A stretch of 64,000 nucleotides of DNA from Gammaproteobacteria bacterium (GTDB lineage Bacteria > Pseudomonadota > Gammaproteobacteria > Steroidobacterales > Foliamicaceae), in the NCBI GenBank assembly GCA_009844425.1, contig VYBN01000001.1:28985-92984 (forward strand), in the 5' to 3' direction. A program made the translations under genes and the position numbers. Position 1 is the stretch's first letter; the number at the start of each line of letters is the position of its first letter. The notes below the pieces were generated by a model that had not been told where the DNA came from, made no database searches, and saw only the letters and a program-made list of their open reading frames with translations. Shown piece after piece: positions 14,106 to 55,817 of this stretch.

Positions 14106-14116
14106 TGAGTTTCCTC

Positions 14117-15586: not shown

Positions 15587-15661
15587 TAACAGGCTCCCGG
15601 CATTTTTCGACGCACGCTTACGGCGAGTTCATCGCGTCCGCTTACGCGCACTATATTGTTT

Positions 15662-15679: not shown

Positions 15680-15767
15680 ACATATCAAAGGCGCATTACA
15701 ACCTGGCTGTGCATTGCGGCATCGCGGCCAATGTATTCGCGCAGGGAACCGAAATGGAGGTCCCGAA

Positions 15768-16640: not shown

Positions 16641-16655
16641 ACGGGGGGTCGGAGC

Positions 16656-17129: not shown

Positions 17130-17130
17130 A

Positions 17131-19461: not shown

Positions 19462-19464
19462 ACG

Positions 19465-20019: not shown

Positions 20020-20037
20020 AAACATCGCACATTCACG

Positions 20038-20730: not shown

Positions 20731-20735
20731 CAGCC

Positions 20736-21158: not shown

Positions 21159-21160
21159 AA

Positions 21161-22099: not shown

Positions 22100-22116
22100 C
22101 CAAGACTAACAGCATC

Positions 22117-23004: not shown

Positions 23005-23093
23005 CGTTCCTCCGTCGTGAGAGGGATAGTCGTTGCGATGTCACGTAAGATATTATGCGATGTATTACACAAAGGCAAGAGGGAGCACTTCAA

Positions 23094-23945: not shown

Positions 23946-23954
23946 CGCGGAACG

Positions 23955-24596: not shown

Positions 24597-24678
24597 GGTG
24601 GATTCAGTCTCGGGAATTTCGCGTAAATATGCCGGTAAATTGTATCATCTGGCATGCGCAGGCCAGAAACCATATAAC

Positions 24679-25458: not shown

Positions 25459-25492
25459 CTCATTGGTCAATCATGATGCAAGGGGCCGGAAC

Positions 25493-27028: not shown

Positions 27029-27166
27029 ATCGGGGAGCGCATACATCGCGATGCATATCCGCACCGCAAAACTCCGATTCATCGTGCGGTGTCAACCTCG
27101 TCTGCGAACCAGCTTATTCTGGAAATTGTGCATCTGACTTGGGAATATTCCAATATAATTCCCAAC

Positions 27167-28315
27167 ATGTATGGAAGACTTCTTGATACACCAAGCGGTT
27201 CAGTGTTTCTTTTCGGGCCCCGGGGCGTCGGCAAAACCACCCTTGTGAGGCAGAGGTTTCCTTCCGCCGCCACCTACGACCTGCTCGATTCTCATGAGGC
27301 GCTGCGGCTTGAACAGGCGCCGCAACGGCTTTATGACGAATGCAGCGCACTCGACAGAGGTTCGTGGGTGGTCATCGACGAGGTTCAGCGTGTCCCGGCG
27401 CTGCTGAACGAAGTCCATCGGCTCATCGAACAGCGCGGACTGTATTTCGTCCTTACCGGATCAAGCGCCAGAAAGCTCCGCCGCGGCGGGGTGAATCTCC
27501 TGGCCGGACGCGCGCTCACCAGGAATCTGTTTCCGCTGGTCTCGGCGGAACTCGCCGGCGACTTCGACGTGAACCAGGCGTTGCGATTCGGGAACCTGCC
27601 GAGCGTGATCGGCAACCGGGAGCGGATCGATTACCTGCAAAGCTACACCTCCACCTATCTTCTGCAGGAAATCCAGCAGGAAGCGTTCACGCGCAACTTG
27701 GGCGGCTTCGCGCGGTTCCTGGAGATCGCCGCCCGGCAGAACGGCCAGCGGACCAACATGCTGAACATCTCCCGGGACGCCGGAGTGAAGCGCAGCACCG
27801 TGAGCAACTACTTCGAGATACTGGTGGATACCCTGATCGGCTTCTGGCTGCCGGCCTGGGAATTCAAACCAAAGACGCGGCAGGTGATGGGAAGAAAGTT
27901 CTACTTCTTCGACTGCGGCGTTTGCCGGGCGCTGACCCGGCGCTTACCCTTCCCGCCGTCGCAGGAAGAACTGGGTCCGCTGCTGGAAACTCTCGTAATC
28001 AACGAGCTGCGGGCGTATCTGTCCTACGGGAATCTCTACTACCCTTTGCACTACTGGTGTTCGTACAACGGCGTGGAGGCGGATATCGTAATGGAAACGG
28101 CCCGGGGGTTCGTGGTTATCGAAATCAAGGCGGCAAGCCGATGGGAGAGAAAGTTCCAGCGTGGGCTAAAGACAGCGGCCGAACGCCTGGGCGGGAAAAA
28201 GACCCGGCGCTACGGCGTTTACCTTGGCGCGAGAGCACTGGTGCTGGATGACGTGCGAGTCTATCCGGTCCACGATTTTCTGGCAGAACTCTGGGCCGGC
28301 GGCCTGATCCGCTAA
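27167..28315 (+). CDS. AAA+ ATPase with DUF4143-type C-terminal domain
   Basis: Start trimmed to MYGRLLDTPSGSVFLFGPRGVGKTT (Walker A). VVIDEVQRVP (Walker B). The C-terminal region is of the AAA_14/DUF4143 type. Confidence 0.75.
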   Translation: MYGRLLDTPSGSVFLFGPRGVGKTTLVRQRFPSAATYDLLDSHEALRLEQAPQRLYDECSALDRGSWVVIDEVQRVPALLNEVHRLIEQRGLYFVLTGSSARKLRRGGVNLLAGRALTRNLFPLVSAELAGDFDVNQALRFGNLPSVIGNRERIDYLQSYTSTYLLQEIQQEAFTRNLGGFARFLEIAARQNGQRTNMLNISRDAGVKRSTVSNYFEILVDTLIGFWLPAWEFKPKTRQVMGRKFYFFDCGVCRALTRRLPFPPSQEELGPLLETLVINELRAYLSYGNLYYPLHYWCSYNGVEADIVMETARGFVVIEIKAASRWERKFQRGLKTAAERLGGKKTRRYGVYLGARALVLDDVRVYPVHDFLAELWAGGLIR

Positions 28316-28356
28316 GCCGAGGCTCCTGCGAGGATTCGATCAACCTGCGGCCCGCA
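28312..28356 (-). pseudogene. relic of a GST-like gene 3' end
   Basis: The reverse strand encodes ...GPQVDRILAGASA*, against GPQVDRILAGAG* at the end of the GST at 13038. The 31-nt core cctgcgaggattcgatcaacctgcggcccg differs at 3 positions, all in third codon positions. Confidence 0.5.
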
Positions 28357-28470
28357 AGCCTACGGAAAGTGCCACAGAAAAGATACCGCCCGGCGCTCTT
28401 GCGGCGCCGGGTAAGGGTGAAATGGTGCGGTAAGAGCGCACGGCGCGGCTCGCAACAGCTGCGGCAGGGT
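28357..28470 (+). pseudogene. rnpB: internal fragment of bacterial type-A RNase P RNA (P9/P10-P12 region)
   Basis: GCCTACGGAAAGTGCCACAGAAAAGATACCGCC...CCGGGTAAGGGTGAAATGGTGCGGTAAGAGCGCACGGCGCGGCTCGCAACAGCTGCGGCAGGGT matches my recollection of the E. coli and Pseudomonas M1 RNA. No CR-I or 3' half is contiguous with it. Confidence 0.65.
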
Positions 28471-28494
28471 CAGCCGGCGCCTTCCGCGCGCTTT

Positions 28495-31400
28495 TTACCA
28501 GCGTGCGGTGAGTTCGATTCCGATCATGTGTTCCGGCGGGGCGGCGGCGGTCTCCCTGCGGGCCGCCTTGAGGCCGAACGCCAGGTCCGCCGCGTGGGCG
28601 GTGTCCGGCGCCAGCCGCCAGCCGAGGGTGAAGTCGCGCGCCGCCGCCGCGAGGCCGAACCCTGCATGCGGGCTGCCGGTGAAGCGCCCGCCGAACGCCG
28701 GGAACCCCCAGGCCGCCTCCATTGCCCAGCGCGAGGCCGCCTCGCCGAAGCCGGCGCGCTCCTCCAGCGGGGCGGGAGCGAACAGCGCGTCGAGGCCGCC
28801 CTGGGCCCGTCCGCCCCAGTCCTGGCGCAGCGTCAGCGACGGTCCGCGCTTAGTCGCCGGAGCCGGGTCCCAGGCCAGCGAGGCCGCGAAGCCCCGGTCC
28901 TTGATGTCGTTGTTGCCGTGCGCGATCAGCGCGCGGCCCGACAGCTCAAGCGAGAGCCCGAGCGCCGGATCGACCCAAGCGATACCGCCGCCGAGTTCGA
29001 CTCCGAACCCGGTCTCGGCATCGCCCCCGTCGTGGCGCGCGCCGGCCTCCAGCTTGGGCGTGATGCTGCCGCCCCCGGCAAGCGCGATCCGGTAGCTGCC
29101 TTCCAGTCCCAATCGCAGCCGGCTCACGCCAGACGCCGACGGCGCCAGATCGTTCGTGCCGTCCGATGAGTCGCCCGCGTACAGCGCGTCGGAAGTGAGC
29201 GCCAGGGCCAGGCCGGACCCCGCCTTCGGCGGCGCGATCAGGTCGCCGCGCAGGCCCAGCGCCGCCATGGTCCAGCCGATGTCCGCCTTGTAGTTGCCGC
29301 CCATCTGCGGCGTGAGGGTGACCTCGCCGGCGCCGTAGCCGAGCGCGCCCCAGAGCTTCATCCGCTCCGAAGCCTGCAAGGCCGCATACGGAACCGCCGC
29401 CGTCAGCGATGCCTCCACCTTGCCGCCGCCTTCACGAACCGCGCCGCCGCAGAGCGCCCGTCTCGCCTCCGGGTCCACCGTGTCATCGCCGGCCTGGCAT
29501 ATCCGGGACGCGGGGCGGGGGCCGGCGCCGGTATCGGCATAGCCGCCCTCGCCAGCGCTCTGCATCAGCGCCAGCCCAACCAGCCAGTTGCCCCGCGCAT
29601 AGTCCGCGCCCAGCATCGTCGTGGCCGCATCGCCGTCGAGCGAGAACGTCCCCTCGCGCCCGTCGAAATTGCCCTGCGCCGCCCGGCCCCAGAGCGCCAG
29701 GCTGCCGCCGCGCGAGTCCGCCGCCCCCGTCGCCGTGAAGCTGCTGCCGAGCAGCGCCTCCTGCAACGTCATGGTGCGGGATCGGCCGCTGCCGCTGCCG
29801 AAAGCCTGCCCCGGACCCGATCCGAACCCGTGGGCATTGCCGAGCCCGCCGGCGCCGAAGCGGCCGCCAGGGCGGGAGAAGCCGGGGCCGAATCCACCGG
29901 CGCGGCCGCCGAAGCCGGCCATGCCGGACGGCCCGTTGCCCGCGAGGCCGATGCCGCCCGCGGCCATATTATCTTTCGCCGCGCCCGGCCCGCCGTCGCC
30001 GCCTGCCCCGGACTGCGATCCGGGATTCAGGCTGATCGCCTGCCCGGCGATGGCGCCCTGGGCCCCCGGCGCGCGCGGCGCCGCCATGCGCCCCGCGATG
30101 CCGTCCAGCGCCTGCTCCGCCACCGTGCGCCCGAAGCGCGCCAGCCACGCCGCCGGCATCGGGTCCGAGTTCACGATGGTCCCCACCGCAACCCCGTCCG
30201 CGATGCCCACCCCGGCGCTCGGGCGTGAAAGCGCCACCTCGAAGGTTTCCGGATCCTCGTTATGGCTGTCGTTATAGACATAGACCCAGAACCGCTTCTC
30301 GGTGTCATCCGGCCCGAAGTCGAGATGCCAAGCGGCCTTCAGATAGTCCACGCCCTCCTGCGCGGAGACCGGCGTCGAGTGGCGCGTGCGGTAGTGCACC
30401 GAGACCAGCTTGCCCGCCGCCTTCGAGAGCCGGACCGTGAACCACATGTACCCGTCTTTCTCGTTGACGGTTTCGTCGCCGATCGAGAACATCGGAAGCG
30501 CCGAGGCCGCGTCGTTGTCGGCCACCGCCACCGAGGCCGCATCGCCCGGCGGCGCGGCGACCGTGTAGCGCAGCCCGTCCTCGCCGTCCCCGGCAAGCGC
30601 CGCCGTCACCGTCCCGCCGGGCTCGTCCGCCGTGTCGTCCACCGTCGCCACCGTAAAGGCGGCCTCGGTCTGCCCCTTCGGTATCGTCACCGCGGCCGCG
30701 CCCTCATGGTCCGCCGCCACGAAGTCGCTGGCATCAGACTCCGAGACTGCGAGCCTGACCGCCAGGTCGGCGCCCGGCGCCCGGCTCGCCGTCACCGTGA
30801 ACGCCGCGCCGGCGCCTTCCGTGATGGAGGCCGTCTTGGCCGCGATGGACATCTCCGGCGGCGGCTCCAGGATGGCGAAGCGCACCGTGCCCGAGCCTTC
30901 GGCCCCGCCGCCGAGGCCGGTGGCGCTGATCGTGCCCAGCCCCACCGTTACCGTCTCGCTCCCGCCCTCCGCCGAACTGTCGGCCGCGGCCATGAGGGTC
31001 AGCGTCGCCGAGGCCGCAGACGGCCCCGTGAAGGTCAGCGCCGGCGGGCCCTTCGGGCCGGCGCCCGCAAGGTTGGCATACGTCACCCCCTGAGGCGCCG
31101 TCTCCGGCGCCGACAGGGCGTAGTCGCTCCCGAGCACCGCCGCGCCGCCGAAGAGCAGCGGGATGGACAGGCTCTCCCCTTGCACCAGCGTGCGCCCGAG
31201 CGCCACCGTGAGGGTCTTGCTTCCGCCCGCCTCGGGCACATCGCCCGCGGGCGCCGACAGCGCCACCGCCGTCGCGTCATCGTCTTCGACCGCCACCGTG
31301 GCGGACGCGCCGCCGTTCTCCCTGTCCACCGCGTAGCCGCCGCCCTTCGCCAGCGCCGCCGTCACCGCGCCCGACGGCTCGTCCGTATCGTCGGCGATCG

Positions 31401-34400
31401 TGGAGACCGTGAACGCAGCCTCCGTCTCGCCCGCCGGAATCGTGACCGTGCGCTCGCCGAGCGCCGCCGCCTCCAGCACCGCGCCGGCCTGCGCGATCTC
31501 CACCGTCACCGCGAGGTCCGCGGCCGGCGCAGCGCCCGCGCTCAGCGTGAACGGCGCCGCCGCGCCTTCCGTCACCGCAGCGCCGGCCGCGAGGCGCACC
31601 ACAGGAAGGGGAACCCCGTCGCCCTCGACCGGCGGCGAAGACGCCTCCAGGCATTCCAGCGCGTCGCCGAACCGCTGCCAGCCGCGCTGGCGCGCCGAGG
31701 CCGCCGTCATCGGCGTCACCTGACGGCCGTCCGCCGTCCACTGCGAAGGCGTCCGCTGCCCGAACGCCATCAGCACGCTGAACCAGTTCTCCGCATAATG
31801 CGGCGGCTTGCTGCGGTTGCTCTCGTAGAGCCGCTCCGCCGTCGCCATCAGCTCGTCCGAAACGCAGGCCGCAAGCGCGGCCTGCGTGGGACCCTGCAAC
31901 GCCGCGTCCTGGAGCGCGGCGGAATCGGACGGCGTAGACGCCAGCGCCAGCGTCGCCGTGCCCGCGAGCGCATCCAGCGCCTGCGTGTTGCCCTCGCCGT
32001 CCAAATGCTCCGGGATGACCTTGACCGTCAGCGTCGTCGCCGAGGGCGTGTTGTGGGCGATAGTGAACTCGGTCTCCGTCACCCCGTCCTGGACGCCTGA
32101 GGCCGCGTTGAGCCCGTCCGCCGCCTTCCACTCCACCCGGTAGCCCGTGGCCCCCGCCACCGCATCCCAGACCGCCTTCGCGCTCGACGCGTCCACGGCC
32201 GCCAGCTGCAGGTTCGACACCGGATCCGCCGGCGGCTCGGCGGCCTCAAGCGGCGCGTTCGACGTGCCCATATCCGGATCCGACCCCTTGCCGGTGATCA
32301 TGGGGCAGCGGTACTCCTGTCCGTTCGGCCCCCGGCGGCTCTGGCTGAACATATGGGCGCGGATGACGCCCAGCGACCAGTTGTGCGGCCCGGTCATGCC
32401 GCGCACCCCGCCGCCCGACGCCGTATGGGTGATGTCGGTGCAGCCCAGCACTCCGGTCTTGCCGGCCGCGAGGTCGTGCACATAGACCCGGCGCCAGCAC
32501 TGCCACGACGATTCCGGCGTGTTGTCGTAGTCCTCGCCGTCCCCGCCGAACCCGTTGTTGCAGTGCGGGGAGGGGTCGCGGTCCTTGAAGGTCAGCGTCA
32601 GCGAGGGCTGCGGCGGCCCATTGCGGGTCAGCGACAGACCGGCCAGGTTCGAATCCCCCACCGTCGCCGTCACCGTCACCGTGCCCCCCGTCTCCGGGCG
32701 GTTCGACAGCCGGATCACGTAGTCCAGCGGGCCGGCATGGATGTCCTGCCCCAGCGACAAGCCCGGCGTCGAGGTGACGGTCCGCGGGCGCTCCATCTTC
32801 CTGGCGGGGTCGAGCGCGCCGTGGTTCCACACCCAGCTCTCCCACGCCTCGACCTCGGGCGCATCGTCCACCTTCACCGCCACCGTGCGCGTGACACCGC
32901 TCCCGTTGTAGCGGCTGTCCGTCGAGGAGAACGCATGGCTCAGGGTCAGCGTTCGGTCGGCGTTGGCGCTCGACTGGTCCGAGCCGGTCACCGTCACAGT
33001 CACCGGCTCGTTCCAGTTGCCGCTCGAACCGCTGGTGAAGGTGTGCGACGACGGGCTTATCGTCGCCGCCCTGCTGTCCGTCCCGCCCTTCGTGATCGTC
33101 ATGGTCACGCTCGCGACCGGCTCCGCGTCCAGCACCACCGTGTAGCTCGCGCTGCCGGTCTCCAGCAGCCGCACCTCGCTTACCGAGAAGGTGACGCCGC
33201 CGCCCTCGTCGTCGAGCATGGCCAGGCTTGCCTGAAAGTTCGTCGCGTGCCGCGCCGCGCCACCGCTCACGGTGGTGCCCGACCCGCTCGCGCCGAGCAC
33301 GCTGTTGCTTGCCAGCCGCACGGTCACGGTCTCGTCCGCCGAGTCGCCGTCGTCGCGGTTCGCCACTGGCGCCAACGTCACCGTCGCCGCCTGCACCGTG
33401 TTCGTGTCGTGGCCGGTGAAGGTGAGCACCGGATTGGCCGTGTTCGCCTCGGTGAGCGCCACGCCCGTGCCCGACGCCGACACCGTGAAGTCGTGGTCGG
33501 GATTGCTGCCGCCGTCCATGCTCCCCGGCAGCCGCGCCCCGGTGGCGCTCGCCAGAACGAGCGGCGCCACCACGACCTCGCCCGCGCGCAGCTGCCGGCC
33601 CAGCGTCACCGTCAGCACCGCCGTGTTCGAGGCGTCGCCCTCGAACATGGAGAGGTCCGAACCCGTGAGCTCGACCGTGGTCGGGTCGTCGTCCGTCACC
33701 GTCACCGTCGCCGTGGACGCAGAGCCCACCTCGTAGTCCGTGCCGGTTGCGACCGTCAGCGTCACCGGGCCGTCCAGCTCGTCCGTGCTGTCGGCCCTGG
33801 TGGCGACCCTGTAGGTGGCCGATGACGCATCGGCCGGAATGGTCACAGTCTTCCCGCCCTCATTGCCGGCATCCACGAAATCGCTGCCTGAAGCGTCCGC
33901 AACTTCCAGCTGGACCGTCAACATCGAGGGCGGCGCCACATCCGCCGTCACCGTGAACTCCGCCGCCGCGCCTTCCGCCACCGGGGATGTGCCCGGTTGG
34001 ACCGTGATCCGCGGGGACGCCTCCGAACCGTTGAGCCGGAGCTTGAGGCTGGAAGGCAGCAGGTTAGCGTTCCAATCGTTGCTGATGCCGGAGTCGCTGC
34101 TGTTGAAGTTGGTTCGGTATAAATGCTCGTTGCCGATGGTCCAGCCAGCGGCGGCGCCCGAATCCTCGTTGTCCGACTCCGTGATCCGCCATTGGGCAAC
34201 CGGTTTTCCCGTATGCCCCGTGGCGTCAACGACCACGAAGTATTCCGTATTCGCCGCCAGGAGGATGCCGCCTGTGGCTGCCGAAAACGTCAATACCATG
34301 TCCTGCGAAAACGCACTGAATGCGGGTTTCGTCAGCGTGCCCAGAACCGCCCCCGGCTGGCCTCCTGAACTGCTACGGACGGTGACCGAAAATTCGATGC

Positions 34401-46368: not shown

Positions 46369-47397
46369 TCAGCTTGGGTCGCTTGCTGGCGAAATATAGA
46401 TGCGGCCGCGCCGCCGGGTGAGGCGAACGCCGCCCCAGCGCGCCTCAGGGTGGCGGTCGGCCGCCGCGTTCAGCAGCATGTCCAGCGCCGCATTCAGGCG
46501 CGCCTCGGACGGCGCGGCGACGCCGAGCGCGGCCAGCCTTTCGCGCAGCAGGTTCGCGCGGCGCGCCGGCGAAAGCCTGAGCAGGCCCTGGCATTCGATA
46601 AAGTCGTCACGCGCGATCCCGCGGCCGTCATGCTCGGCCAGGTCGCGCAGCAATCCGCTCGTGTCCGCGGCGAGCCGCGCCGTTCGTCCGGCCGTAGCCG
46701 CGGCGCCGGGCCAGCGCCCGCGCAGCAGCGGCTGCACTTTATTGCGCAGGAAGGAACGGTCAAACCCGGTCTCGCGATTGGAAGGATCCTCGATCCAGTT
46801 CTCGCCCCTCCGATCAAGCCAGGTCCTCAAATCCTCCCGGGGCACGTCGAGCAGCGGACGCAACAACCATCCCCGGCCCAGGCGGCGCTTTTCGCGGATT
46901 CCCGCCAGACCCGCAATGCCGGTCCCGCGAAGCAGGCGCAGCATCAGCGTTTCCCACTGATCGTCCTGGTGATGCGCGGTCAGCAGGCATTCCCCGGGCT
47001 CCATGAGCGCCTCCAGCGCCTCGTAGCGCGCGCGCCGCGCCGCGGCTTCCACGCCCCGTCCGTCGGCCCGCACTTCAACCGCGCGGCAGGCCAGCGGCAC
47101 GCCCAGGGCCTGGGCCCGATCCTCGCAATGCGCGGCCCAGTCGCCGGAATCCCGGTGCAGGCCATGATTGATGTGCGCGGCGCGCAGACGTTCGCTGCCG
47201 GATTCTTCCAGCAGCTCATGCAGGGCCAGCAGCAGGGCGGTCGAATCGGCCCCGCCGCTGAACGCCACCAGCAGCGGCCGCTCCCGCCAGTGGGGGCACA
47301 AACGGTCAAGCGCCGCTGCCAGGGTTGTCAGAACCGCATCGATCGCAGGCTTGCTGCTCTTGCCAGTTGGTGGAATCTTCAGCTTCGCCTCGGGCAC
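46369..47397 (-). CDS. tilS: tRNA(Ile)-lysidine synthase
   Basis: PP-loop VAFSGGADSTALL...HINHGLH...LLTAHHQDDQWETLMLRLLRG. 342 aa (short form). Confidence 0.85.
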   Translation of the reverse strand: MPEAKLKIPPTGKSSKPAIDAVLTTLAAALDRLCPHWRERPLLVAFSGGADSTALLLALHELLEESGSERLRAAHINHGLHRDSGDWAAHCEDRAQALGVPLACRAVEVRADGRGVEAAARRARYEALEALMEPGECLLTAHHQDDQWETLMLRLLRGTGIAGLAGIREKRRLGRGWLLRPLLDVPREDLRTWLDRRGENWIEDPSNRETGFDRSFLRNKVQPLLRGRWPGAAATAGRTARLAADTSGLLRDLAEHDGRGIARDDFIECQGLLRLSPARRANLLRERLAALGVAAPSEARLNAALDMLLNAAADRHPEARWGGVRLTRRRGRIYISPASDPS

Positions 47398-47404: not shown

Positions 47405-48304
47405 CTATGCGGCTTCTCCGGCCAGAACCCCGCGCGGGTCCTCGATCAGGTCGGGATGATGGAGCTTCACCAGCCGGAGCAGTTCAACCGGCAACCCTTC
47501 GGGCGTTTCCGCCTTGCCTCCCCGCCCGTTCTGCACCGTATGACCGGGGGTATCGCCCATCTGCATCCAGGGCCGGAACGCCGTGTTGGCAATGTAGGCC
47601 ACGTCCACCGGCACCGAAACCGCCGACGGATCGGAAAGCGCCGCCCAGCTGCCCTGGTTGATCGTCCACTCGCGGTAGAAGAAACTCGGTCTCGATTCAC
47701 CGGCCGGGAACACCCGCGCGCTGATGTCCTGGCGGATGTAGAAATCGTCGCCGCGCAGCTGCGGCAGACTGATGAAGCGTTGGCTCTCGACCTGCCCCGT
47801 GGCGAAAAAGGACTCGCCATCGACCGTTTCCTGCTGCATCGTGAACTCGTTGGTGTCCTCGGCGCGAATCGTCATATCCATATGCGACGGGCCGGCGCGG
47901 TACAGCGGCACGTCCACCACGTTGCCGGTGACCGGCATGGTCAGCTTGTCCAGCAGCTCCCCCGTATTGATGTCCATGTACATCGCGACTTCCAGCGAAA
48001 CGCTCTTGTAAAGGCTGTCGTTGACCTTGCGCATCTGGCGGATGGTGGTCGAAAGAAGCCGGTACATCGGATGAGTCACGCCGTCGATGAACGCATAGTT
48101 GACCGCGTCCACCCAGCCCATCGTTACGCGGTCGTCGAGGCTGCTGCGCAGCTTGACGAAGTAGTGCAGCATTTCATCGTCAGTGAGATCCAGATCGGTA
48201 AGTCCCGAATATTCCTCGGCGTGCGCACCGGGGGCAAGCCCAGCCAGAAACGGCGCGCCAAGCGCACCCGCCAGTATCGAACGGCGATTCAGGTTGGTTT
48301 TCAT
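47405..48304 (-). CDS. Tat-signal secreted hypothetical protein (possibly DUF1838-like)
   Basis: Start trimmed to MKTNLNRRSILAGALGAPFLAGLAPGAHA (twin-arginine signal). Native-like high GC. Function unknown. Confidence 0.55.
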   Translation of the reverse strand: MKTNLNRRSILAGALGAPFLAGLAPGAHAEEYSGLTDLDLTDDEMLHYFVKLRSSLDDRVTMGWVDAVNYAFIDGVTHPMYRLLSTTIRQMRKVNDSLYKSVSLEVAMYMDINTGELLDKLTMPVTGNVVDVPLYRAGPSHMDMTIRAEDTNEFTMQQETVDGESFFATGQVESQRFISLPQLRGDDFYIRQDISARVFPAGESRPSFFYREWTINQGSWAALSDPSAVSVPVDVAYIANTAFRPWMQMGDTPGHTVQNGRGGKAETPEGLPVELLRLVKLHHPDLIEDPRGVLAGEAA

Positions 48305-48519
48305 ATTTCCTCCCAATACATGGCCGGTTAGCCTAACAGGCTGTTGAAGAATATCGCCCCGATTAAGTTCGTTGCAGTATTATCCCTTCACAAGTACTTT
48401 TTCAACAGGCTGCTTGTAGGCCGCGATGTAATGCGGGTGAATCAAGATGAGCGGCGTGGGGCCGCCAGAGTGAAGGCGCCACACTGGCCAAGCACAACCC
48501 TACATTCAAACCAGCCGTA

Positions 48520-49137
48520 TTACTTCAGTCGCTCTGCCGCCGCCGATGAAGCCTCCTCATCTTGTTCGGGATAAACCCACAGCGTCAGATCGCGTAATGG
48601 GGGAAAGCTGATTGGCAGCATGCGCACGTCAAACGGCATATCGGGTCCATTGTCAAGGCAATCCAACTGCAAATCGAGCCATTCATTCTTCTGGCAATGC
48701 CGTGCCACAATCTTCATGTAACGGCGCAGTAGAAGCAGGGGCGGAAACCAACCTTTCCGATCCATCCATGACAACAGATCTGAACCTCCTTTGGAACTGT
48801 TGCAGGAACGGCAAGCTGAAATCAGGTTGTCAGATGCGTCAGGACCGCCGCGCATTCTGGGAATGAGATGGTCCGCGCACAGGTTGCTCTTGCTGCCGCA
48901 GTAGTAGCATGCTTGCGGCGCCAGCAACTTGTTTCGTTCGTCGTCGTAGATGGATCGCATACGCATGGAACCGTCGATCAGTCCGCGCCTGAGCTTGGCG
49001 CGGATCATGTAATCCACCGTCGCATATTTGTGCGCACCTCTATTGATCGCTGAATGAGCGCATGCAAGTTGAGAGTAACTGAACGCGATCTGCTCGCGCA
49101 CGGTTTTCGGCTTGGCAGGCACCGACCCGCCCCTCAC
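48520..49137 (-). CDS. HNH endonuclease-domain protein (205 aa)
   Basis: CYYCGSKSNLCADHLIPRMRGGPDASDNLISACRSCNSSKG is the HNH/His-Me finger. The GTG start overlaps the upstream stop (GTGA). GC is lower than the flanks. Confidence 0.75.
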   Translation of the reverse strand: MRGGSVPAKPKTVREQIAFSYSQLACAHSAINRGAHKYATVDYMIRAKLRRGLIDGSMRMRSIYDDERNKLLAPQACYYCGSKSNLCADHLIPRMRGGPDASDNLISACRSCNSSKGGSDLLSWMDRKGWFPPLLLLRRYMKIVARHCQKNEWLDLQLDCLDNGPDMPFDVRMLPISFPPLRDLTLWVYPEQDEEASSAAAERLK

Positions 49138-51122
49138 CGAGCGCGGCGAGTTCGAAAATTTTCGAGGTTTTGTTGGAACTGGCGCTCGCCCGGCAGCAAG
49201 GACATCGCCCTTTCATAAGCATCCTCAACGGAAGTCGCGGGCTCATGCAGGAATTCTCGGACCCGCGCCAGATCGCGCCATGCAAACGCATGCCGGGCGC
49301 GCGGAGCATCTAGCTGAATTACCCGCTCAAGGAGCTCCCGGGCTTCCATAAGGAACTTGCGGTTGGCCGCCTTCCATCGACCTCTGCGGCGGCGAAAGGC
49401 TTCAGTCGCCAATCCCATTTTGGTTTGTGCAAATTCGTGTAGAGCTCGGGGGTCCGACTGAATCGCGGCGCCTGCTCTCTCGAAATAGTGGTGGGCCTCA
49501 TTTTCTTTGTGCAACCGACGAGCCAATATCGCGGCATCCACCGCGTCCTGGTTTTGTGCGCTTAGGCGAAGCTCGCCGAGTAACTTCCCAGCCTTTCCTT
49601 TCTCGTTGGCATCAAACCATACTTCAATCATGGTGTTGGCCACATGAGGCCGAACATGCCGGGCCGCACGCTGCTTGAATTCTTCCCAAGCCTCTTCGGC
49701 CTGAATCAACTCCTGCCGCTTTGCGTACGAGCGAATAACTTCCGCGGTAAGCACCGCAGATTCGGGACTTGCTGTCCATGCCGATACCAGGCGGCGGTGT
49801 GCCTCGTTCTCGTCGCCCAAGGCACGAAGATGGCCAGCGTCGCGGAGTGCTGATAGAGCGGCGTACTCGGGATGAGCAGGCAGAGTAGCGAGGAAGTACG
49901 TTCGCTCCCGATCAAATTCGAATCGGGGCGGGGGCGAGCCGTTCTCATCCATTGCCCTATAGACCCTGGCCAAGCCCGTCATGCGGCCTTCCGCTAGCTT
50001 CAGCTCCTTGAATAATTCGCCTATGCGCCGGTTGCGCGCAGGAACCGGCCGGAGTCGTCCGTCCCTTGTCAGATGCTCTGGCTCGATCCCGGGAACTGGT
50101 CCAGGGTAGCTTGTGACTTCGATTCGATCCGGATATAAGTAAACCTTTGACGGCTCCGGCTGATCGACATCGTAGCTGCGGTGATATAGAGCGTTGGCCA
50201 GTGTTTCCCGCAACGCTGGCAGAGGATAACTCACCCAGCCGCGAACCTGACTCCGGTCCCGCTGTTTCTCCAGGTGGGTGGCGGACAAGTTTTCCAGGTG
50301 ATTCAGACAATCATGAAACTGATCCTTAAGCGGACCCGCAAACGTACGCTCTTCGAGAACGTCGCCGCCGCGGTCAGCGGCAAACTGAACCACCTCGATT
50401 TTCGCCCCGCGAAACCAATGCGTCGGCTCATTGGAAAAGAACAGGAGGCCTACATTGCGTGGAGATTCATGTTGATTAACGCGTCTTGTGATTCTCATGT
50501 TCCGGTAAACCACGCTGGCGTCGGGCTCGTCCAAGAGGCTGCTTTGAATGTCCCTGAGAAACTCACGCACCTGTGTTTCCCGCAGGTCTTCCACTCTTGC
50601 TTCGCGGGCCGGACGGTCGTCCCACGGAACTTTCGCCGTCTGTTGAATCAACTGCCGGAGCATATCTCCCTTTTGCTCCGCGTTTACAGTTTCGGATCCT
50701 AGGCGAACCCAGTACCTGAAGACACCCGTATCGCCATCTGGCCCGCGATGCGGCCGGATGTCGCTTGCAGGTGCCCAGATAACCAGGACTGCGCGTTCAT
50801 TGACAACTTCCGGCGAGAAGGTCGGCTGGTAGCTTGGATCCAGTCGCTTGCAGTTTCCGTTGATCCACTTCTGAGCAACATCCAGCTCGCTTGTCTCCAG
50901 TCCTTTCGGCGGCAGTTTGGCGCGCCCGTCCTTTTCTTCGAGTCCCAAAACGATATAGCCACCGTTAAGATTATGAAAATCGTTTGCGAACGCGCAAATG
51001 GTTTTCAATATCTGAGGGCCGGTCGTTTGTGGATTCCACGACGCCTTGAACTCCACCCGCTCGGATTCAATTCCGCGGCAGTAGAGCAGATCAGCCAGAT
51101 TAATAGGAAGAATGCCGGGCAT
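49134..51122 (-). CDS. AlbA_2/Schlafen-like + HATPase_c_4 ('RecG C-terminal-like') protein with C-terminal helical-repeat extension (662 aa)
   Basis: N-terminus ESERVEFKASWNP...ICAFANDFHNLNGGYIVLGLEE (AlbA_2). Middle LRETLANALYHRSYD...DRIEVTSYPGP...ARNRRIGELFKELKLAEGRMTGLARVYRAM (HATPase_c_4-type). The last ~210 aa are all-helical and TPR-like. Confidence 0.7.
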   Translation of the reverse strand: MPGILPINLADLLYCRGIESERVEFKASWNPQTTGPQILKTICAFANDFHNLNGGYIVLGLEEKDGRAKLPPKGLETSELDVAQKWINGNCKRLDPSYQPTFSPEVVNERAVLVIWAPASDIRPHRGPDGDTGVFRYWVRLGSETVNAEQKGDMLRQLIQQTAKVPWDDRPAREARVEDLRETQVREFLRDIQSSLLDEPDASVVYRNMRITRRVNQHESPRNVGLLFFSNEPTHWFRGAKIEVVQFAADRGGDVLEERTFAGPLKDQFHDCLNHLENLSATHLEKQRDRSQVRGWVSYPLPALRETLANALYHRSYDVDQPEPSKVYLYPDRIEVTSYPGPVPGIEPEHLTRDGRLRPVPARNRRIGELFKELKLAEGRMTGLARVYRAMDENGSPPPRFEFDRERTYFLATLPAHPEYAALSALRDAGHLRALGDENEAHRRLVSAWTASPESAVLTAEVIRSYAKRQELIQAEEAWEEFKQRAARHVRPHVANTMIEVWFDANEKGKAGKLLGELRLSAQNQDAVDAAILARRLHKENEAHHYFERAGAAIQSDPRALHEFAQTKMGLATEAFRRRRGRWKAANRKFLMEARELLERVIQLDAPRARHAFAWRDLARVREFLHEPATSVEDAYERAMSLLPGERQFQQNLENFRTRRAR

Positions 51123-51303
51123 AGGTAGATTCTAAGGACAGGCCGGAATTGCGCCTAACAACAGCTAATCGGCAGGGAATTCTACTCCGGCAGAACTTCC
51201 TTACAGCAACTCTTGGTCAGCCAGAGTCAGAGGTGGGTGCACAACAGGTCAATTCCGACGCAGACAGCATCCGCGCCATTCGCCTTGGTCGCAGCCAAGA
51301 GGA

Positions 51304-52260
51304 CTAGGCTTCGCGGTAGACGCCGTAACTGAGCAATCGCCGATGGCGGCGCTCCAGCAGTTCGGCGAGTTCCAGGCGGGTCAGCTTGAACAGCTGCTTG
51401 CCGATCGCCTTCTTGAGGCTCGCTATCGCGGCGGTCGGGTCGCGGTGGGCGCCGCCCACGGGCTCGTCCAGCACTTCGTCCACGAGCTTGAGCTTCAGCA
51501 GCCGCCTGGCCGTGATGCCCATGGCCTGGGCGGCCTCGGTGGCGTGGCCGGCGCTCTTCCAGAGAATGCTGGCGCAGCCTTCCGGAGAAATTACCGAGTA
51601 GATGCTGTATTGCATCATGATCACCGCGTCCGCTACGCCGATGGCCAGCGCCCCGCCGGAGCCTCCCTCGCCGATGATCGCGCTGATGATGGGGGTCTTC
51701 AACCCCACCATGCAGCTCAGGCTGGAGGCGATGGCCTCGCTCTGGCCCCGCTCCTCCGCGCCGATTCCCGGATAGGCGCCGGGCGTATCGATCAGCGTAA
51801 CCACCGGCAATCCGAACTTCTCCGCAAGCTGCATGAGCCGCTGCGCCTTGCGGTAACCCTCCGGGCGGGTCATGCCGTAGTTGCGGCGCACCCTCGAGGC
51901 CGTATCCCGCCCTTTCTGGTGGCCGATCAGCATCACCGGAGTTCCCTCGATGCGGGCCAGCCCACCCACCAGCGCATAGTCGTCCGCATACATGCGATCG
52001 CCGTGCAGTTCCTGAAATTCGCCGGTCATGCCGGCGATGTAGTCCAGCGAGTAGGGGCGCTTCGGATGGCGCGCCACCTGCGCCGTTTGCCACGGCGTGA
52101 GCTTGCGGTAGATGTTGCGGGTCAGCGACTCGCTGCTGCGCTGCAGCCGCTGAATCTCGCCCGCCACGTCCACGCCGGAATCGTTGTCGAGAAACCTCAG
52201 TTGCTCGATCTTGCTTTCCAGCTCCGCGATGGGCTGCTCGAAGTCAAGAAATGATTCCAT
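51304..52260 (-). CDS. accA: acetyl-CoA carboxylase carboxyltransferase alpha subunit
   Basis: [22 protein letters not shown]...[20 protein letters not shown]...; 318 aa. Confidence 0.95.
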
Positions 52261-52322: not shown

Positions 52323-55300
52323 TCAGGCGTAGCGAATACGGAACTCGCTGATTACCGGCGAATCGCCCAGGGCATGGCGAAGGCCGCCGGTTGCGCGCAC
52401 ATTCCAGTGACTGCCCAGGCGCAGGCTTCCGGCGGCGGCCGGGCCGGAATAACGCACGACAACCTGCGTTGCGCCGGGCACGTGCGGGCGCAGCAGGTCC
52501 TTGAGCTGCGTGAAGGTCTCGGCCGGCGTTTCGGCCGCGCGACAATCGAGCAACAGCAGCCGGGCGCGATCTTCCATCACGTCATCCAGCGGCTCCACCG
52601 AGTCCGCAAACAGCATGAGCGAACCCCGCTGCAGGCGCGACAGACGGCCCTTCACCAGCACGAGGGAATGGGGCGTGATCAGCCGGCCGGGAGGAGCGCC
52701 TGCGTCCCACCGCGGCAAACGCACCGGCAGCCGGGTGGCTCCGTCGTCCAGGTCGAAGTAATTGGCGCCGGACCTGCGCCACTTGCGCAACACGCTGCCG
52801 GCCACCGTAACGTCCGGCGCGTCGCGTTCATCCCGCGGGCCCGGCTGCGATCGATCCAGTATCTCGCGCAGCGCGCCGCCCGTGAGAACGCGCGCCTCGT
52901 CCCGGCATTCATCGAACGGGTGGCCGCTCAGGCAGAACCCCAGACTCCGGCGCTCCCCGTCCAGCAGTTCCCGAAGCCCCCAGTCCGGCACGTCGGGAAT
53001 CTCGATTGGCATCGGCTGGTCGCCGCCGTCGTCGAACAGGCCCTCCTGCCCGCTCTCGGCGTCGCGGGCCGCCTGCGCCGCTGCCGCGAGCGCAGCGGGC
53101 AACACCCGTATCAGCGCGGCCCGGTTGGCGCACAAGCTGTCCAGGGCGCCCGACCGAACCAGCGTTTCGGCCTGCCGCTGGTGCAGCCCCGCTCCGCTGA
53201 TTCGCGAAAACAGGTCCGCTACGCCCGTATAGGGCCCGTTTGCTTCGCGTTCGGCCCGAATGGCCTGGGCCGCGGCCTGGCCCAGTCCGCGGATGGCGCC
53301 CAACCCGCAGCGAACGGCCTTGTCGTCCACGGCGCTGAACCCCACAAGAGAGCGGTTCACGTCCGGGCGCTCAACCGCGAGCCCCAGGGCGAGGCACTCC
53401 TGCGTCATCCAGTAGAGGCGGTCATGCGCGCTCATGTCGGTGGTCATCGTGGACGCCATGTACTGGGCCGGATAGTGCGCCTTCAGCCAGGCCGTCTGGT
53501 AGGCGACGATGGCATACGCCGTGGAGTGCGACTTGTTGAAACCGTAGCCGGCGAAGGTTTCCATCAGGTTGAAGATGTGCTCGGCCTTGCCCCGGGTCAG
53601 TCCGTGCTTCAAGGCGCCCTTTACGAACACCGAGCGCTGATCCGCCATCTCGTCCTTCAGCTTCTTGCCCATCGCACGGCGCAGCACGTCCGCCTGGGCA
53701 AAGCTGTAGCCTGCGATCAGGCGCGCGATCTCCATGACCTGCTCCTGGTAGAGGATCACGCCGTAGGTTTCGCCCAGGAGTTCACGCAGGTCGTCGTGAA
53801 GGTAATCGACCGATTCCTGGCCGTGCTTGCGCTTGATGTAGGTGTCCGCCATGCCGGTCTGCAGCGGGCCGGGCCGGAACAGCGCCACCAACGCGATCAT
53901 GTCGCTGAAGCGGTCCGGCCGCAAATCGCGGATCAGGTCGCGCATGCCGCGCGACTCGAGCTGGAAAACCGCGCGGGTGCGCAGGTTGCGCAGGAGTTCG
54001 TAGACCCTCGAATCGTCCAGCGGCAGCCGGGCCATGTCGATGGGCGGCTCGTCCGACGAGCGGCGGGCGCGATTGACCTCCTCCACGGTGCGGGTGATCG
54101 TGGTGAGGTCGTTCAGGGCCAGGAAGTCGAACTTCACCAGTCCGACCGATTCGATATCGTCCTTGTCGAACTGGGTGACCGTCGGCGCGTCGCTTTCCTG
54201 ACGGTAGAGCGGCGTGAATTGGATCAACTCCGACGGAGCGATCACGACGCCGCCCGCGTGGGTGCTGGAATTGCGCGGCAGGCCCTCCAGTTGCAGCGCC
54301 AGGTCGATGACCGCGCGCGCCTCGGTGTCGGTGTTGTACAAGTGACTCAGTTCCCGGTCGTCCTTCATCGCCTGCTCGATCGTCACGCCCACGGGCAGCG
54401 CGGGGATCAGACCGGCGATCTGTTCTCCCAGGCCCAGCGGATGACCCAGGACCCGGGTCGCGTCCTTGATGGCGGCGCGCGCCGCCAGGCGGTTGAACGT
54501 GATGATTTGCGCCACCCGGTCCCGCCCGTATTCCTCGGCCACATGCTCAAGGACCCGTTCGCGCTGTTCCGCGCAGAAATCGATATCGATGTCCGGCATG
54601 GAGATCCGCTCCGGGTTCAGGAAGCGTTCGAATATCAATCCGTATCGCAGGGGATCGATGGCGGTGATGCCCAGTGCATAGCTGATCAGCGAGCCGGCCG
54701 CCGATCCCCTGCCCGGGCCTACCGGCACCTGGTTATCGCGCGCCCAGCGCACGATGTCGGCGACGATCAGGAAGTAGCCGGGGAAGTCCATGCGCCGCAC
54801 GACCTCCAGTTCGGCGCGCAAGCGGTCGGTATAACGCCCGGGCAACTCCGCATCCGCGCCTGCGCCGACGCCGAGCTGGCGTTTCAGGCCGGTCAGCGCC
54901 TCCCGTTCGAGAAATTCCCATTCGCTCAGGCCCGCCGGCGCACGCGCCTTCGGCAGCCTTGACTCTCCCAGGTCCAGTTCCACCGTGCAGGCGCGGGCGA
55001 TGGCCGCCGTGTTGCTCAGGGCCTCCGGCAGGTCGGCGAACAGCTCGGCCATCTCCGCCGGACTCCTCAAGTATTGCTGGGGTGTGTAGCGCCGCTCGCG
55101 GCGCGGATCGTTCAGCGTTTCGCCCCGGTGTATGCACACGCGCGCTTCGTGCGCCGTGAACTCGCCGCTGTCCAGGAAGCGAACATCGTTGACCGCCACC
55201 AGCGGGATGCCTTCCGCGTTGGCGAGTTCCACCGTTCGCTGCGTCAGCTCCGTTTCGCCCGGGCGGCCCAGCCGGCTTACCTCCAGGAAGAGGCCGTCCC

Positions 55301-55817
55301 CCATCAGCCTGCGCAGGGCCAGTATCCGCTCGCGCTCCCGGCGCGCCTCGGGTCCGCGGCCTCCGGCGCTGTCGAGGCCGATCAGCCCGATCAGGCCATC
55401 CAAAGCCTCGACGCTCAGCCATTCCCCCATGAGCGCGGGGGCGCCGCGCGGTTCCAGCTCGAGGTACATGCGCGTAAGCAGGGCCAGCAGGTTCCTGTAA
55501 CCCCTAGCGTTCCGGCACAGGAACGTCACCCGTCCGGGACGAAACCCATCCTCCGGCCGGCCGAAATCCACGTCCGCGCCCAGTATGGGCTTGACTCCCG
55601 CGTCAAGCGCCGCCCGATAGAAGCGCACCGCACCGAACATGTTGTTGAGGTCGGTCAGGGCGACCGCGGGCATGCCCCGCTCCCGCACCGCCCGGCAAAA
55701 GCCTCCCTCGCCGCCGCTTATGCGCAGCACCGAGTCCACCAGGGAGAATTCCGAGTGCAGGCGAAGATGAACGAAGGGAGCGGTCGTTTCCACGGGCGAT
55801 TCAGGGCCTGTTCCCAT
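52323..55817 (-). CDS. dnaE: DNA polymerase III alpha subunit
   Basis: 1164 aa. PHP domain FVHLRLHSEFSLVDS; polymerase core (GRGSAAGSLISYALGIT...DIDIDF). Confidence 0.97.
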   Translation of the reverse strand: MGTGPESPVETTAPFVHLRLHSEFSLVDSVLRISGGEGGFCRAVRERGMPAVALTDLNNMFGAVRFYRAALDAGVKPILGADVDFGRPEDGFRPGRVTFLCRNARGYRNLLALLTRMYLELEPRGAPALMGEWLSVEALDGLIGLIGLDSAGGRGPEARRERERILALRRLMGDGLFLEVSRLGRPGETELTQRTVELANAEGIPLVAVNDVRFLDSGEFTAHEARVCIHRGETLNDPRRERRYTPQQYLRSPAEMAELFADLPEALSNTAAIARACTVELDLGESRLPKARAPAGLSEWEFLEREALTGLKRQLGVGAGADAELPGRYTDRLRAELEVVRRMDFPGYFLIVADIVRWARDNQVPVGPGRGSAAGSLISYALGITAIDPLRYGLIFERFLNPERISMPDIDIDFCAEQRERVLEHVAEEYGRDRVAQIITFNRLAARAAIKDATRVLGHPLGLGEQIAGLIPALPVGVTIEQAMKDDRELSHLYNTDTEARAVIDLALQLEGLPRNSSTHAGGVVIAPSELIQFTPLYRQESDAPTVTQFDKDDIESVGLVKFDFLALNDLTTITRTVEEVNRARRSSDEPPIDMARLPLDDSRVYELLRNLRTRAVFQLESRGMRDLIRDLRPDRFSDMIALVALFRPGPLQTGMADTYIKRKHGQESVDYLHDDLRELLGETYGVILYQEQVMEIARLIAGYSFAQADVLRRAMGKKLKDEMADQRSVFVKGALKHGLTRGKAEHIFNLMETFAGYGFNKSHSTAYAIVAYQTAWLKAHYPAQYMASTMTTDMSAHDRLYWMTQECLALGLAVERPDVNRSLVGFSAVDDKAVRCGLGAIRGLGQAAAQAIRAEREANGPYTGVADLFSRISGAGLHQRQAETLVRSGALDSLCANRAALIRVLPAALAAAAQAARDAESGQEGLFDDGGDQPMPIEIPDVPDWGLRELLDGERRSLGFCLSGHPFDECRDEARVLTGGALREILDRSQPGPRDERDAPDVTVAGSVLRKWRRSGANYFDLDDGATRLPVRLPRWDAGAPPGRLITPHSLVLVKGRLSRLQRGSLMLFADSVEPLDDVMEDRARLLLLDCRAAETPAETFTQLKDLLRPHVPGATQVVVRYSGPAAAGSLRLGSHWNVRATGGLRHALGDSPVISEFRIRYA

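What the first reader, a model, noticed from the sequence alone, without database searches (positions are those of the whole stretch)
48317..51303. Lower-GC two-gene operon (Schlafen/AlbA_2-HATPase_c_4-helical repeat protein + HNH nuclease) inserted in the conserved accA-tilS junction: candidate uncharacterised defence module
The window follows the Pseudomonas-type order rseP-bamA-skp-lpxD-lpxA-lpxB-rnhB-dnaE-accA-tilS-pyrG-kdsA-eno-ftsB, in which accA normally abuts tilS. Here about 3.9 kb is interposed.

The 48317-51303 part is compositionally foreign. My hand counts of single 60-nt lines give 40 % (48341), 48 % (50461), 45 % (50941) and 58-62 % (48841, 49981, 50401). The flanking lines 47461 and 51661 give about 67 %.

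It encodes one operon:
- A 662-aa protein with an N-terminal AlbA_2/Schlafen-like domain, a central HATPase_c_4 ('RecG C-terminal-like') region and a ~210-aa unassigned helical-repeat C-terminus.
- A 205-aa HNH nuclease (CYYCG...DHLIP...NLISACRSCNSSKG) whose GTG start overlaps the first gene's TGA (GTGA).

A sensor or nucleic-acid-binding protein translationally coupled to a nuclease, with foreign composition, inside a housekeeping block is the classic signature of an anti-phage or abortive-infection island. I do not recognise this pair as a named system.
Basis: partly seen in the sequence, partly recalled or inferred. Interest (0 to 1): 0.8.

Follow-up and report, generated by a model that had tools for sequence, protein, structure and literature searches.

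The report
Bacterial Schlafen gene with hitch-hiking HNH nuclease
A 2.75-kb piece of foreign DNA inserted between two housekeeping genes carries a bacterial Schlafen-type RNA-cutting ATPase, a kind of protein recently shown to defend against phage, plus a small HNH nuclease gene that is not its regular partner, so this is a new member of a known family and not a new two-gene system.

Summary
accA and tilS abut in 63 of about 66 comparable contigs, but here 3.9 kb lies between them. The 48317-51303 part is compositionally foreign: GC 0.56 against 0.645, and GC3 0.60-0.62 against 0.81-0.86. All domain calls are confirmed.

- The 662-aa protein is a prokaryotic Schlafen of the "Schlatpase" type: an AlbA_2 RNase domain, a GHKL ATPase (PF13749) and a C-terminal TPR superhelix. 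This class was described in 2025-2026. The Ex4ExK and E/N ATPase motifs are essentially invariant in 190 homologs. It therefore carries its own nuclease and is not merely a sensor.
- The HNH gene is not a conserved partner. None of 80 homolog loci across many phyla has it within 2.5 kb.
- In the closest relative (90% aa identity) the same cassette sits at another site. There the HNH is destroyed by a 500-nt deletion, while the Schlafen gene stays under purifying selection (dN/dS 0.09).
- HNH homologs elsewhere are solitary, next to MmeI-like methylases, or among transposases.

Best reading: a mobile cassette with an autonomous single-gene Schlafen defence candidate plus an accessory or selfish HNH. 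This is a new member of a known kind, of modest interest.

The parts
48509..51261 (-). Mobile cassette: 138 nt of upstream DNA, the Schlafen-ATPase-TPR gene, the HNH gene and 11 nt beyond its stop. GC is 0.564.
   Evidence: Locus L081 comes from a relative and lies at a different genomic site (pyrK-like/yggS). It shares 85% nt identity with 51261-49112 and 80% with 48618-48509. No terminal repeats, tRNA or integrase were found.
49134..51122 (-). Gene A: 662-aa prokaryotic Schlafen of the Schlatpase-TPR architecture.
   Evidence: More than 2000 homologs were found. dN/dS against relatives is 0.08-0.09.
50682..51068 (-). Schlafen AlbA_2 nuclease domain (aa 19-147) with E19-x4-E24-x-K26.
   Evidence: Pfam E 6e-15. 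E19, E24 and K26 are conserved in 190, 189 and 188 of 190 homologs; D48 in 190/190 and E63 in 184/190. The profile matches PDB 2kyy.
49893..50225 (-). GHKL (Bergerat-fold) ATPase domain, aa ~300-410, with N-box E306/N310.
   Evidence: PF13749 E 1e-12. E306 and N310 are present in 190/190 homologs. The profile matches PDB 3lmm. PADLOC pAgo and Aga models match only this N-terminal half.
49137..49871 (-). C-terminal TPR-like alpha-solenoid (aa 418-662); putative sensor or interaction domain.
   Evidence: Eleven or twelve helices with pLDDT 80-96. Foldseek matches TPR superhelices. PF14559 is annotated on homologs. Only 181 cluster representatives in 1.84 billion match it, all consistent with the same architecture or fragments of it.
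51176..51191 (-). Conserved upstream motif GCCGGAGTAGAATTCC, containing a -10-like TAGAAT at 51184-51179; possibly the cassette's own promoter.
   Evidence: Conserved in the window, L081 and L087 upstream regions. The simple sigma-70 scan did not call it. The promoter role is inferred.
48520..49122 (-). Gene B: 200-aa HNH endonuclease (205 aa if started at the GTG at 49137). It has CxxC...CxxC zinc ligands and D89-H90, N104 and N113.
   Evidence: the catalytic and zinc residues are invariant in 30 homologs. The model has pLDDT 87, and only the HNH core resembles known structures.
48450..48466 (-). Terminator-like hairpin downstream of the HNH gene.
   Evidence: This is a consensus match only, and the count does not exceed that in shuffles.
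47405..48316 (-). DUF1838 gene with a Tat-type signal peptide. It is the third interposed gene and is not part of the cassette.
   Evidence: Pfam DUF1838 E 1e-13. GC3 is 0.79. A promoter-like site lies at 48405-48376. It is outside the region shared with L081.

Best explanation
The insert is a horizontally acquired cassette of about 2.75 kb. Its main cargo is an autonomous, single-protein prokaryotic Schlafen system.

Proposed mechanism, all steps inferred by homology:
1. The C-terminal TPR solenoid holds the protein inactive until it binds a phage-derived protein or nucleic acid.
2. ATP binding to the GHKL domain then drives oligomerisation. This pairs the single-lobe Schlafen domains into an active nuclease.
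3. The nuclease uses the Ex4ExK site to cut tRNAs and shuts down translation, giving an abortive-infection type of defence.

The HNH gene just downstream is co-transcribed but is an accessory or selfish passenger, not an obligate partner. It was acquired in the ancestor of this small clade and has already been lost in the nearest relative.

Shown: foreign composition, insertion into a conserved junction, domain architecture, intact catalytic motifs, purifying selection, absence of a conserved partner, and cassette mobility. Inferred: tRNase activity, a sensing role for the TPR, and phage defence.
For: Membership evidence:
- PF04326 and PF13749 are both present.
- The N-terminal half matches the PADLOC models of Schlafen-bearing pAgo and pAgo-associated proteins, at about E 1e-14.
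- Ex4ExK is conserved in 190, 189 and 188 of 190 homologs, and the GHKL residues E306 and N310 in 190/190.

Literature:
- pSlfn proteins are anti-phage tRNases. Fusions to a histidine-kinase-like domain are the commonest architecture, at 34% (PMC13056530).
- The SLFN plus GHKL 'Schlatpase' supradomain drives ATP-dependent tetramerisation and tRNA cleavage in RzAgo. TPR fusions are listed among Schlatpase tails (bioRxiv 10.64898/2026.05.29.728809).

Autonomy of gene A:
- 0 of 80 homolog loci have the HNH, by tblastn within 8 kb and by an HNH HMM within 2.5 kb.
- No neighbour family recurs among 268 flanking ORFs.
- The closest homologs (90% and 78%) lie at another site without an intact HNH.
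- In L081 the HNH carries a 500-nt out-of-frame deletion at a CTGCCAA microhomology, while gene A remains at dN/dS 0.09.

Mobility:
- GC3 is 0.60-0.62 against 0.81-0.86 for host genes.
- The same cassette occurs at two genomic sites at 85% nt identity.
- Homologs at 60-66% identity occur across six or more phyla.
Against: - No experiment exists for this architecture. The two Slfn-HisKinase systems tested in E. coli gave no protection against the phage panel (PMC13056530).
- More than 90% of Schlatpase proteins carry an HTH tail and were long annotated as regulators, so a non-immune role is possible.
- Homologs of this family mostly sit alone among housekeeping genes. Only roughly 10-15% of loci have defence-like genes within two ORFs (SNF2/PLD helicases, McrBC, methylases, NYN). 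That is far less than the 69.6% within 10 kb reported for pSlfn overall, although the two measures differ.
- The structure model is poor for aa 150-300.
- Tight spacing and co-transfer with the HNH in this clade leave room for a functional link.
Confidence: 0.6

Rival explanations
1. A genuine two-gene system, at least in this clade. The Schlatpase-TPR protein senses infection and activates or recruits the downstream nuclease as a second, DNA-directed effector. Downstream there would be an exchangeable 'nuclease slot', filled by an HNH here and by a PLD-type nuclease in a relative.
For: - There is an 11-nt spacer, or a 4-nt overlap, with the Shine-Dalgarno sequence overlapping A's stop.
- GC3 is similar in the two genes, 0.60 and 0.62.
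- The two genes moved together as one cassette to two genomic sites.
- In the 78% relative, gene A is followed 105 nt downstream by a co-oriented NgoFVII-like PLD protein.
- A 77% HNH homolog lies in the same pyrK-yggS hotspot as A in relatives.
- L055 has a PLD-SNF2 protein 28 nt downstream of its A homolog.
Against: - 0 of 80 homolog loci have the HNH.
- The L087 PLD protein has no homolog next to any other A homolog.
- The HNH is deleted in the L081 lineage while gene A stays constrained.
- HNH homologs occur without gene A in 8 of 8 sampled contexts.
- Gene A already carries an intact nuclease site.
Confidence: 0.17
2. The HNH is an independent element. It would be either a free-standing selfish (homing-type) endonuclease or a solitary restriction nuclease (McrA-like, or the nuclease of an MmeI-type methylase pair) that landed at the 3' end of gene A. 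Gene A would not be an immune gene but a regulatory or stress-response ATPase.
For: - HNH homologs are about 190-200 aa and 55-83% identical across phyla. They sit at the 3' ends of unrelated, co-oriented housekeeping genes (L263, L264, L266), among transposases (L094, L265), or directly upstream of MmeI-like methylases (L093, L261).
- Some sources name them McrA.
- A homologs are mostly embedded among housekeeping genes.
- The tested Slfn-HisKinase systems gave no phage phenotype.
Against: - Gene A's patchy, cross-phylum distribution, foreign composition and intact nuclease and ATPase sites fit an accessory conflict gene better than a regulator. It has no HTH.
- No target-site or homing signature, and no modification-reader domain, was found for the HNH.
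Confidence: 0.18

Closest known systems
Prokaryotic Schlafen nucleases (pSlfn; RorSlfn5, EcoSlfn7), Perez Taboada et al., Nat Microbiol 2026 (PMC13056530)
   Same: It has an AlbA_2/Schlafen domain with the Ex4(E/D)xK motif fused to additional domains in a single-gene module. The fusion to a histidine-kinase-like (GHKL) domain is their commonest class.
   Different: The validated examples carry Ig-like or DUF262 partners, not GHKL plus TPR. The GHKL-fused examples they tested showed no defence. This family is rarely next to known defence genes.
'Schlatpase' supradomain of SLFN-pAgo (RzAgo), bioRxiv 10.64898/2026.05.29.728809
   Same: It has the same SLFN (PF04326) plus GHKL (PF13749) pair. An E...N ATP/Mg motif (E306/N310 here, E314/N318 in RzAgo) sits at nearly the same position. 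PADLOC pAgo models match aa 35-408. That paper lists TPR among Schlatpase C-terminal fusions.
   Different: There is no PAZ/MID/PIWI core, so there is no guide-dependent sensing. A 240-aa TPR solenoid takes its place. The oligomeric mechanism has not been tested.
DIP2311 of Corynebacterium diphtheriae (PDB 3LMM) and NE RecG-related N-domain (PDB 2KYY)
   Same: These are the only solved relatives of the N-terminal two-thirds by sequence and fold.
   Different: They are structural-genomics entries of unknown function and have no TPR tail.
TPR-sensor immune proteins (bacterial Avs/STAND sensors; human IFIT1/5). This comparison rests on general knowledge plus Foldseek hits.
   Same: A C-terminal TPR solenoid is attached to an NTPase-controlled effector. 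IFIT5 and IFIT1 are among the Foldseek hits.
   Different: The resemblance is generic to TPR repeats. There is no STAND NTPase, and no evidence for what the TPR binds.
Small HNH nucleases: Gme HNH nicking endonuclease (PDB 4H9D), Cas9/IscB HNH domains, McrA, Septu PtuB
   Same: It shares the beta-beta-alpha-metal core with a CxxC...CxxC zinc site and the DH...N...N residues.
   Different: The family-specific helical N- and C-terminal wraps have no structural match. PtuB and PDC-M01B hits are weak and limited to the motif. There is no PtuA ATPase, no reader domain and no guide-RNA machinery.

Membership tests
Prokaryotic Schlafen (pSlfn) nucleases | Schlafen/AlbA_2 domain (PF04326) | tested here: met
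   E 6.3e-15, 56 bits against a cut-off of 25.3, aa 19-147.
Prokaryotic Schlafen (pSlfn) nucleases | Catalytic Ex4(E/D)xK motif | tested here: met
   E19-SERV-E24-F-K26. The three residues are conserved in 190, 189 and 188 of 190 homologs. The motif definition is from PMC13056530.
Prokaryotic Schlafen (pSlfn) nucleases | tRNA cleavage and phage protection | not testable with these tools
   Needs biochemistry and plaque assays.
Prokaryotic Schlafen (pSlfn) nucleases | Association with defence islands | tested here: inconclusive
   Among 268 ORFs flanking homologs, only a few are defence-like: 3 SNF2/PLD, 2 N6_N4 methylases, 2 Eco57I, McrBC and NYN. Most are housekeeping. The window itself is a housekeeping block.
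Schlatpase supradomain (SLFN + GHKL ATPase) | PF13749 GHKL domain C-terminal to the SLFN domain, with ATP/Mg-binding E and N | tested here: met
   PF13749 E 1.1e-12. E306 and N310 are invariant in 190 homologs. Their equivalence to RzAgo E314/N318 is inferred from motif and position, not from a direct alignment.
SLFN-pAgo | Argonaute PAZ-MID-PIWI core | tested here: not met
   The PADLOC pAgo model matches only profile positions 54-430 of 1121. The C-terminus is a TPR solenoid.
Conserved two-gene system (Schlatpase-TPR + this HNH) | Co-occurrence of the two genes across homologs | tested here: not met
   0 of 80 loci. Apart from the window's own contig, no contig is shared between the top 120 hits of each protein. 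Linkage is seen only in the window and, as a remnant, in L081.
Septu (PtuA + PtuB) | PtuB-type HNH next to a PtuA ATPase | tested here: not met
   The best PtuB hit is E 4.7e-4 and covers the motif only. No PtuA-like gene is present.
Type IV McrA-like restriction endonuclease | HNH domain plus a modified-DNA reader domain | tested here: inconclusive
   The HNH core is present. The flanking helices have no recognisable reader fold. Some sources label homologs McrA.
Type II/IIL restriction-modification pair (HNH + MmeI-like methylase) | Adjacent DNA methyltransferase | tested here: not met
   A methylase is present next to HNH homologs in L093 and L261. No methyltransferase lies in or beside the cassette here.

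The most novel reading that the evidence does not exclude
The Schlatpase-TPR family may be a cross-phylum, horizontally sweeping single-gene immune module. The clade closest to this window is found largely in what look like sponge-symbiont MAGs. In some lineages the module may recruit an exchangeable downstream DNA nuclease: an HNH here, and an NgoFVII-like PLD in the 78% relative. That would give a dual RNA-and-DNA effector pair controlled by one TPR sensor.
Probability: 0.15. Interest if true: 0.55.

Novelty: new member of a known kind. Interest (0 to 1): 0.3.

Why it matters
The most common architecture of bacterial Schlafen proteins, Schlafen plus GHKL ATPase, still lacks a demonstrated trigger or phenotype outside the Argonaute fusion. 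This family is large, highly conserved and solitary. Its tail is a dedicated TPR that occurs only in this architecture. That makes it a clean candidate for asking what a stand-alone Schlatpase senses.

The natural contrast between relatives, with an intact HNH here and a deleted HNH in the nearest relative, offers a ready-made test of whether the neighbouring nuclease contributes. Otherwise the locus is an ordinary example of a small accessory insertion in a housekeeping block.

Tried and rejected
- **Conserved partner.** I clustered ORFs from 80 homolog loci, ran tblastn and an HNH HMM on the flanks, and ran Pfam and PADLOC on 268 neighbouring ORFs. None gave a recurrent partner.
- **Phage or plasmid carriage.** Viral contigs hold only relatives at 32% identity or less that lack the TPR tail, and for the HNH only generic HNH motifs. 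Plasmids hold no full-length relative of either protein.
- **Insertion signatures.** I found no terminal repeats or target duplications at 48509/51261, and no tRNA or integrase.
- **Non-coding RNA in the cassette.** Rfam gave nothing at E up to 0.1.
- **TPR as a promiscuous sensor module shared with other effectors.** Rejected. Of 1.84 billion representatives only 181 match, all consistent with the same architecture or fragments of it.
- **Named-system membership.** Septu and PDC-M01 for the HNH, and SLFN-pAgo for gene A, were rejected.
- **accA-tilS junction in close relatives.** This could not be examined.
- **Supplementary tables of PMC13056530.** They are not held, so the pSlfn class number for this architecture is unknown.
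Full report
**What is there.** The region is read on the minus strand. The order is dnaE (52323-55817), accA (51304-52260), a 662-aa gene (A, 49134-51122), an HNH gene (B, 48520-49122 or 49137), a DUF1838 gene with a Tat-type signal (47405-48316), tilS (46369-47397) and pyrG. The window matches a metagenome-assembled Gammaproteobacteria genome, GCA_009841345.1, where the same gene order is annotated.

**Domains.**
- Pfam confirms SLFN_AlbA_2 (aa 19-147) and HATPase_c_4 (aa 326-407) in A. It confirms HNH/HNH_5 in B and DUF1838 in the third gene.
- An AlphaFold model of A is confident only for the AlbA_2 core and the C-terminal 240 residues. That tail forms an alpha-solenoid of 11-12 helices.
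- Foldseek matches the N-terminal part to PDB 3LMM and the tail to TPR superhelices (CTPR, OGT, IFIT, APC subunits).

**Is it an insertion, and is it foreign?**
- I collected 80 metagenome contigs with accA relatives. In 63 of about 66 with enough downstream sequence, tilS follows accA, mostly within about 150 nt and at most about 490 nt. Here 3906 nt intervene.
- GC of 48317-51303 is 0.562. That is the lowest of all equal-sized windows in the 64 kb (mean 0.645, z = -2.1).
- The modest z-score reflects a second lower-GC stretch at 13.5-28.5 kb, which holds catabolic genes.
- GC3 is more telling: A 0.60 and B 0.62, against 0.81-0.86 for dnaE, accA, tilS and pyrG. DUF1838 is 0.79, close to native.

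**What gene A is.** A has more than 2000 homologs, and the top 120 are full-length at 63-90% identity. A scan of one genome per species found at least 581 loci. The best 80 come from Acidobacteriota, Gamma- and Alphaproteobacteria, Spirochaetia, Gemmatimonadota, Binatia, Synechococcus, Thermotogae and even a Methanosarcinaceae archaeon.

Recent literature defines this protein class.
- Perez Taboada et al. (PMC13056530) show that prokaryotic Schlafen nucleases with an Ex4(E/D)xK site are anti-phage tRNases fused to varied sensors. The commonest fusion, at 34%, is to a histidine-kinase-like domain.
- Kuzmenko et al. (bioRxiv 10.64898/2026.05.29.728809) name the PF04326 plus PF13749 pair the 'Schlatpase' supradomain, found in 58.6% of prokaryotic Schlafen proteins.
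- They list TPR among the C-terminal fusions of Schlatpases.

In A and 189 homologs, E19-x4-E24-x-K26 is conserved in 190, 189 and 188 sequences, and the GHKL residues E306 and N310 in all 190. PADLOC models for Schlafen-bearing pAgo and pAgo-associated proteins match only aa 35-419. A is thus a Schlatpase-TPR protein that carries its own nuclease. It is not a sensor that needs one.

The TPR tail is specific to this family. A full HMMER pass over 1.84 billion representatives found only 181 matches, all with the same architecture or fragments of it.

**Is the HNH a partner?** Across the 80 homolog loci the answer is no.
- No HNH relative lies within 8 kb by tblastn.
- None lies within 2.5 kb by an HMM built from 30 HNH homologs.
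- Clustering of all flanking ORFs found no recurrent neighbour.
- Pfam and PADLOC scans of the two nearest ORFs on each side (268 ORFs) found at most three members of any family. Most were housekeeping enzymes.
- A minority are defence-like: SNF2/PLD helicases, McrBC, methylases and an NYN protein.

HNH homologs form a family of about 190-200 aa, also spread across phyla. They have invariant CxxC...CxxC, DH, N and N residues. In eight sampled contexts, none lies next to an A homolog:

| Context of the HNH homolog | Loci |
|---|---|
| Directly upstream of an MmeI-like methylase | L093, L261 |
| Among transposase or integrase fragments | L094, L265 |
| Appended to the 3' end of unrelated genes | L262, L263, L264, L266 |

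**The closest clade tells a finer story.**
- The 90%-identical A homolog (L081, seen in nine contigs from several samples) sits between a pyrK-like gene and yggS, not at accA-tilS.
- At the DNA level, L081 matches window 51261-49112 at 85% and 48618-48509 at 80%. The shared unit is 138 nt of upstream DNA, A, B and 11 nt beyond B's stop.
- In L081 the HNH has lost 500 nt between two CTGCCAA repeats. This leaves an out-of-frame remnant of the last 22 codons.
- A and B therefore travelled together as one cassette in this clade. B was later lost while A stayed under strong purifying selection: dN/dS is 0.09 against L081 and 0.08 against L087.
- In the 78% relative (L087), A is followed by an NgoFVII-like PLD protein and a TonB receptor.
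- A 77% HNH homolog lies between that TonB receptor gene and yggS in yet another relative.
- The pyrK-yggS interval is thus a variable hotspot, and the genes downstream of A are exchangeable.

**Operon structure.**
- The GTGA overlap exists. Homolog N-termini and the NCBI call favour the GTG at 49122, with a GAGGGG Shine-Dalgarno overlapping A's stop. Either way, co-transcription and coupling are likely.
- A conserved GCCGGAGTAGAATTCC motif about 60 nt upstream of A is shared by the window, L081 and L087. It may be the cassette's promoter.
- A terminator-like hairpin follows B, and DUF1838 has its own promoter-like site.
- No flanking repeats, tRNA, integrase or Rfam match were found.

**Verdict.** It is wrong in treating the pair as an unrecognised sensor-nuclease system.

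The best explanation (about 0.6) is an autonomous Schlatpase-TPR Schlafen module with an accessory or selfish HNH passenger. A true clade-specific two-gene system (about 0.17) and a non-immune role for A with an independent HNH (about 0.18) remain open.

The defence role itself is inferred. The two Schlafen-HisKinase systems tested so far gave no phenotype, and this family is usually solitary among housekeeping genes. The finding is a new member of a known kind and of modest interest.

Noticed in passing
window 13500-28500 and 28500-33000: A second, 15-kb lower-GC stretch (0.575-0.615) holds catabolic genes: cupin, glyoxalase-type dioxygenase, FAA hydrolase, a GntR/FCD regulator, an RraA-like aldolase and an aldehyde dehydrogenase. 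A 1006-aa ORF there (17005-20025, minus strand) has no Pfam hit. The stretch is followed by an unusually GC-rich one (0.72-0.75).
   Followed up: partly
window 47405-48316 (-): A DUF1838 gene with a twin-arginine signal (MKTNLNRRSILAGA...) also lies between accA and tilS. It has near-native GC3 (0.79) and its own promoter-like site. A 23%-identical DUF1838 paralog lies in the pyrK-yggS hotspot of a relative (L087 3806-4525).
   Followed up: partly
loci L001-L080: Schlatpase-TPR homologs at 60-66% amino-acid identity occur in at least six phyla. Many of the MAG names look like sponge-symbiont bin sets (SB0662_bin, CAR2_bin, COS3_bin, RHO1_bin). The sponge origin is my reading of the names and was not verified. 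The pattern suggests recent cross-phylum transfer within one habitat.
   Followed up: no
L093 6001-9538; L261 6001-9544; L262 2637-6567: The HNH family sits directly upstream of a co-oriented MmeI-like methyltransferase gene in two genomes. In a third it follows a 730-aa ORF with a weak N6_N4 methylase hit. This hints that some members act as the nuclease of a restriction-modification pair.
   Followed up: partly
L081 9990-10110; L087 8001-14898; L266 1-1990: The interval between a pyrK-like gene and yggS is a variable hotspot in the relatives. L081 has A plus an HNH remnant. L087 has A plus an NgoFVII-like PLD protein plus a TonB receptor. L266 has a TonB receptor plus an intact HNH.
   Followed up: yes
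L018 10066-13328; L010 10051-10674; L055 4207-6930: A few distant A homologs are followed by co-oriented defence-type genes: a McrB-like AAA_5 ATPase plus McrC, an NYN RNase, and a PLD-SNF2 helicase.
   Followed up: partly
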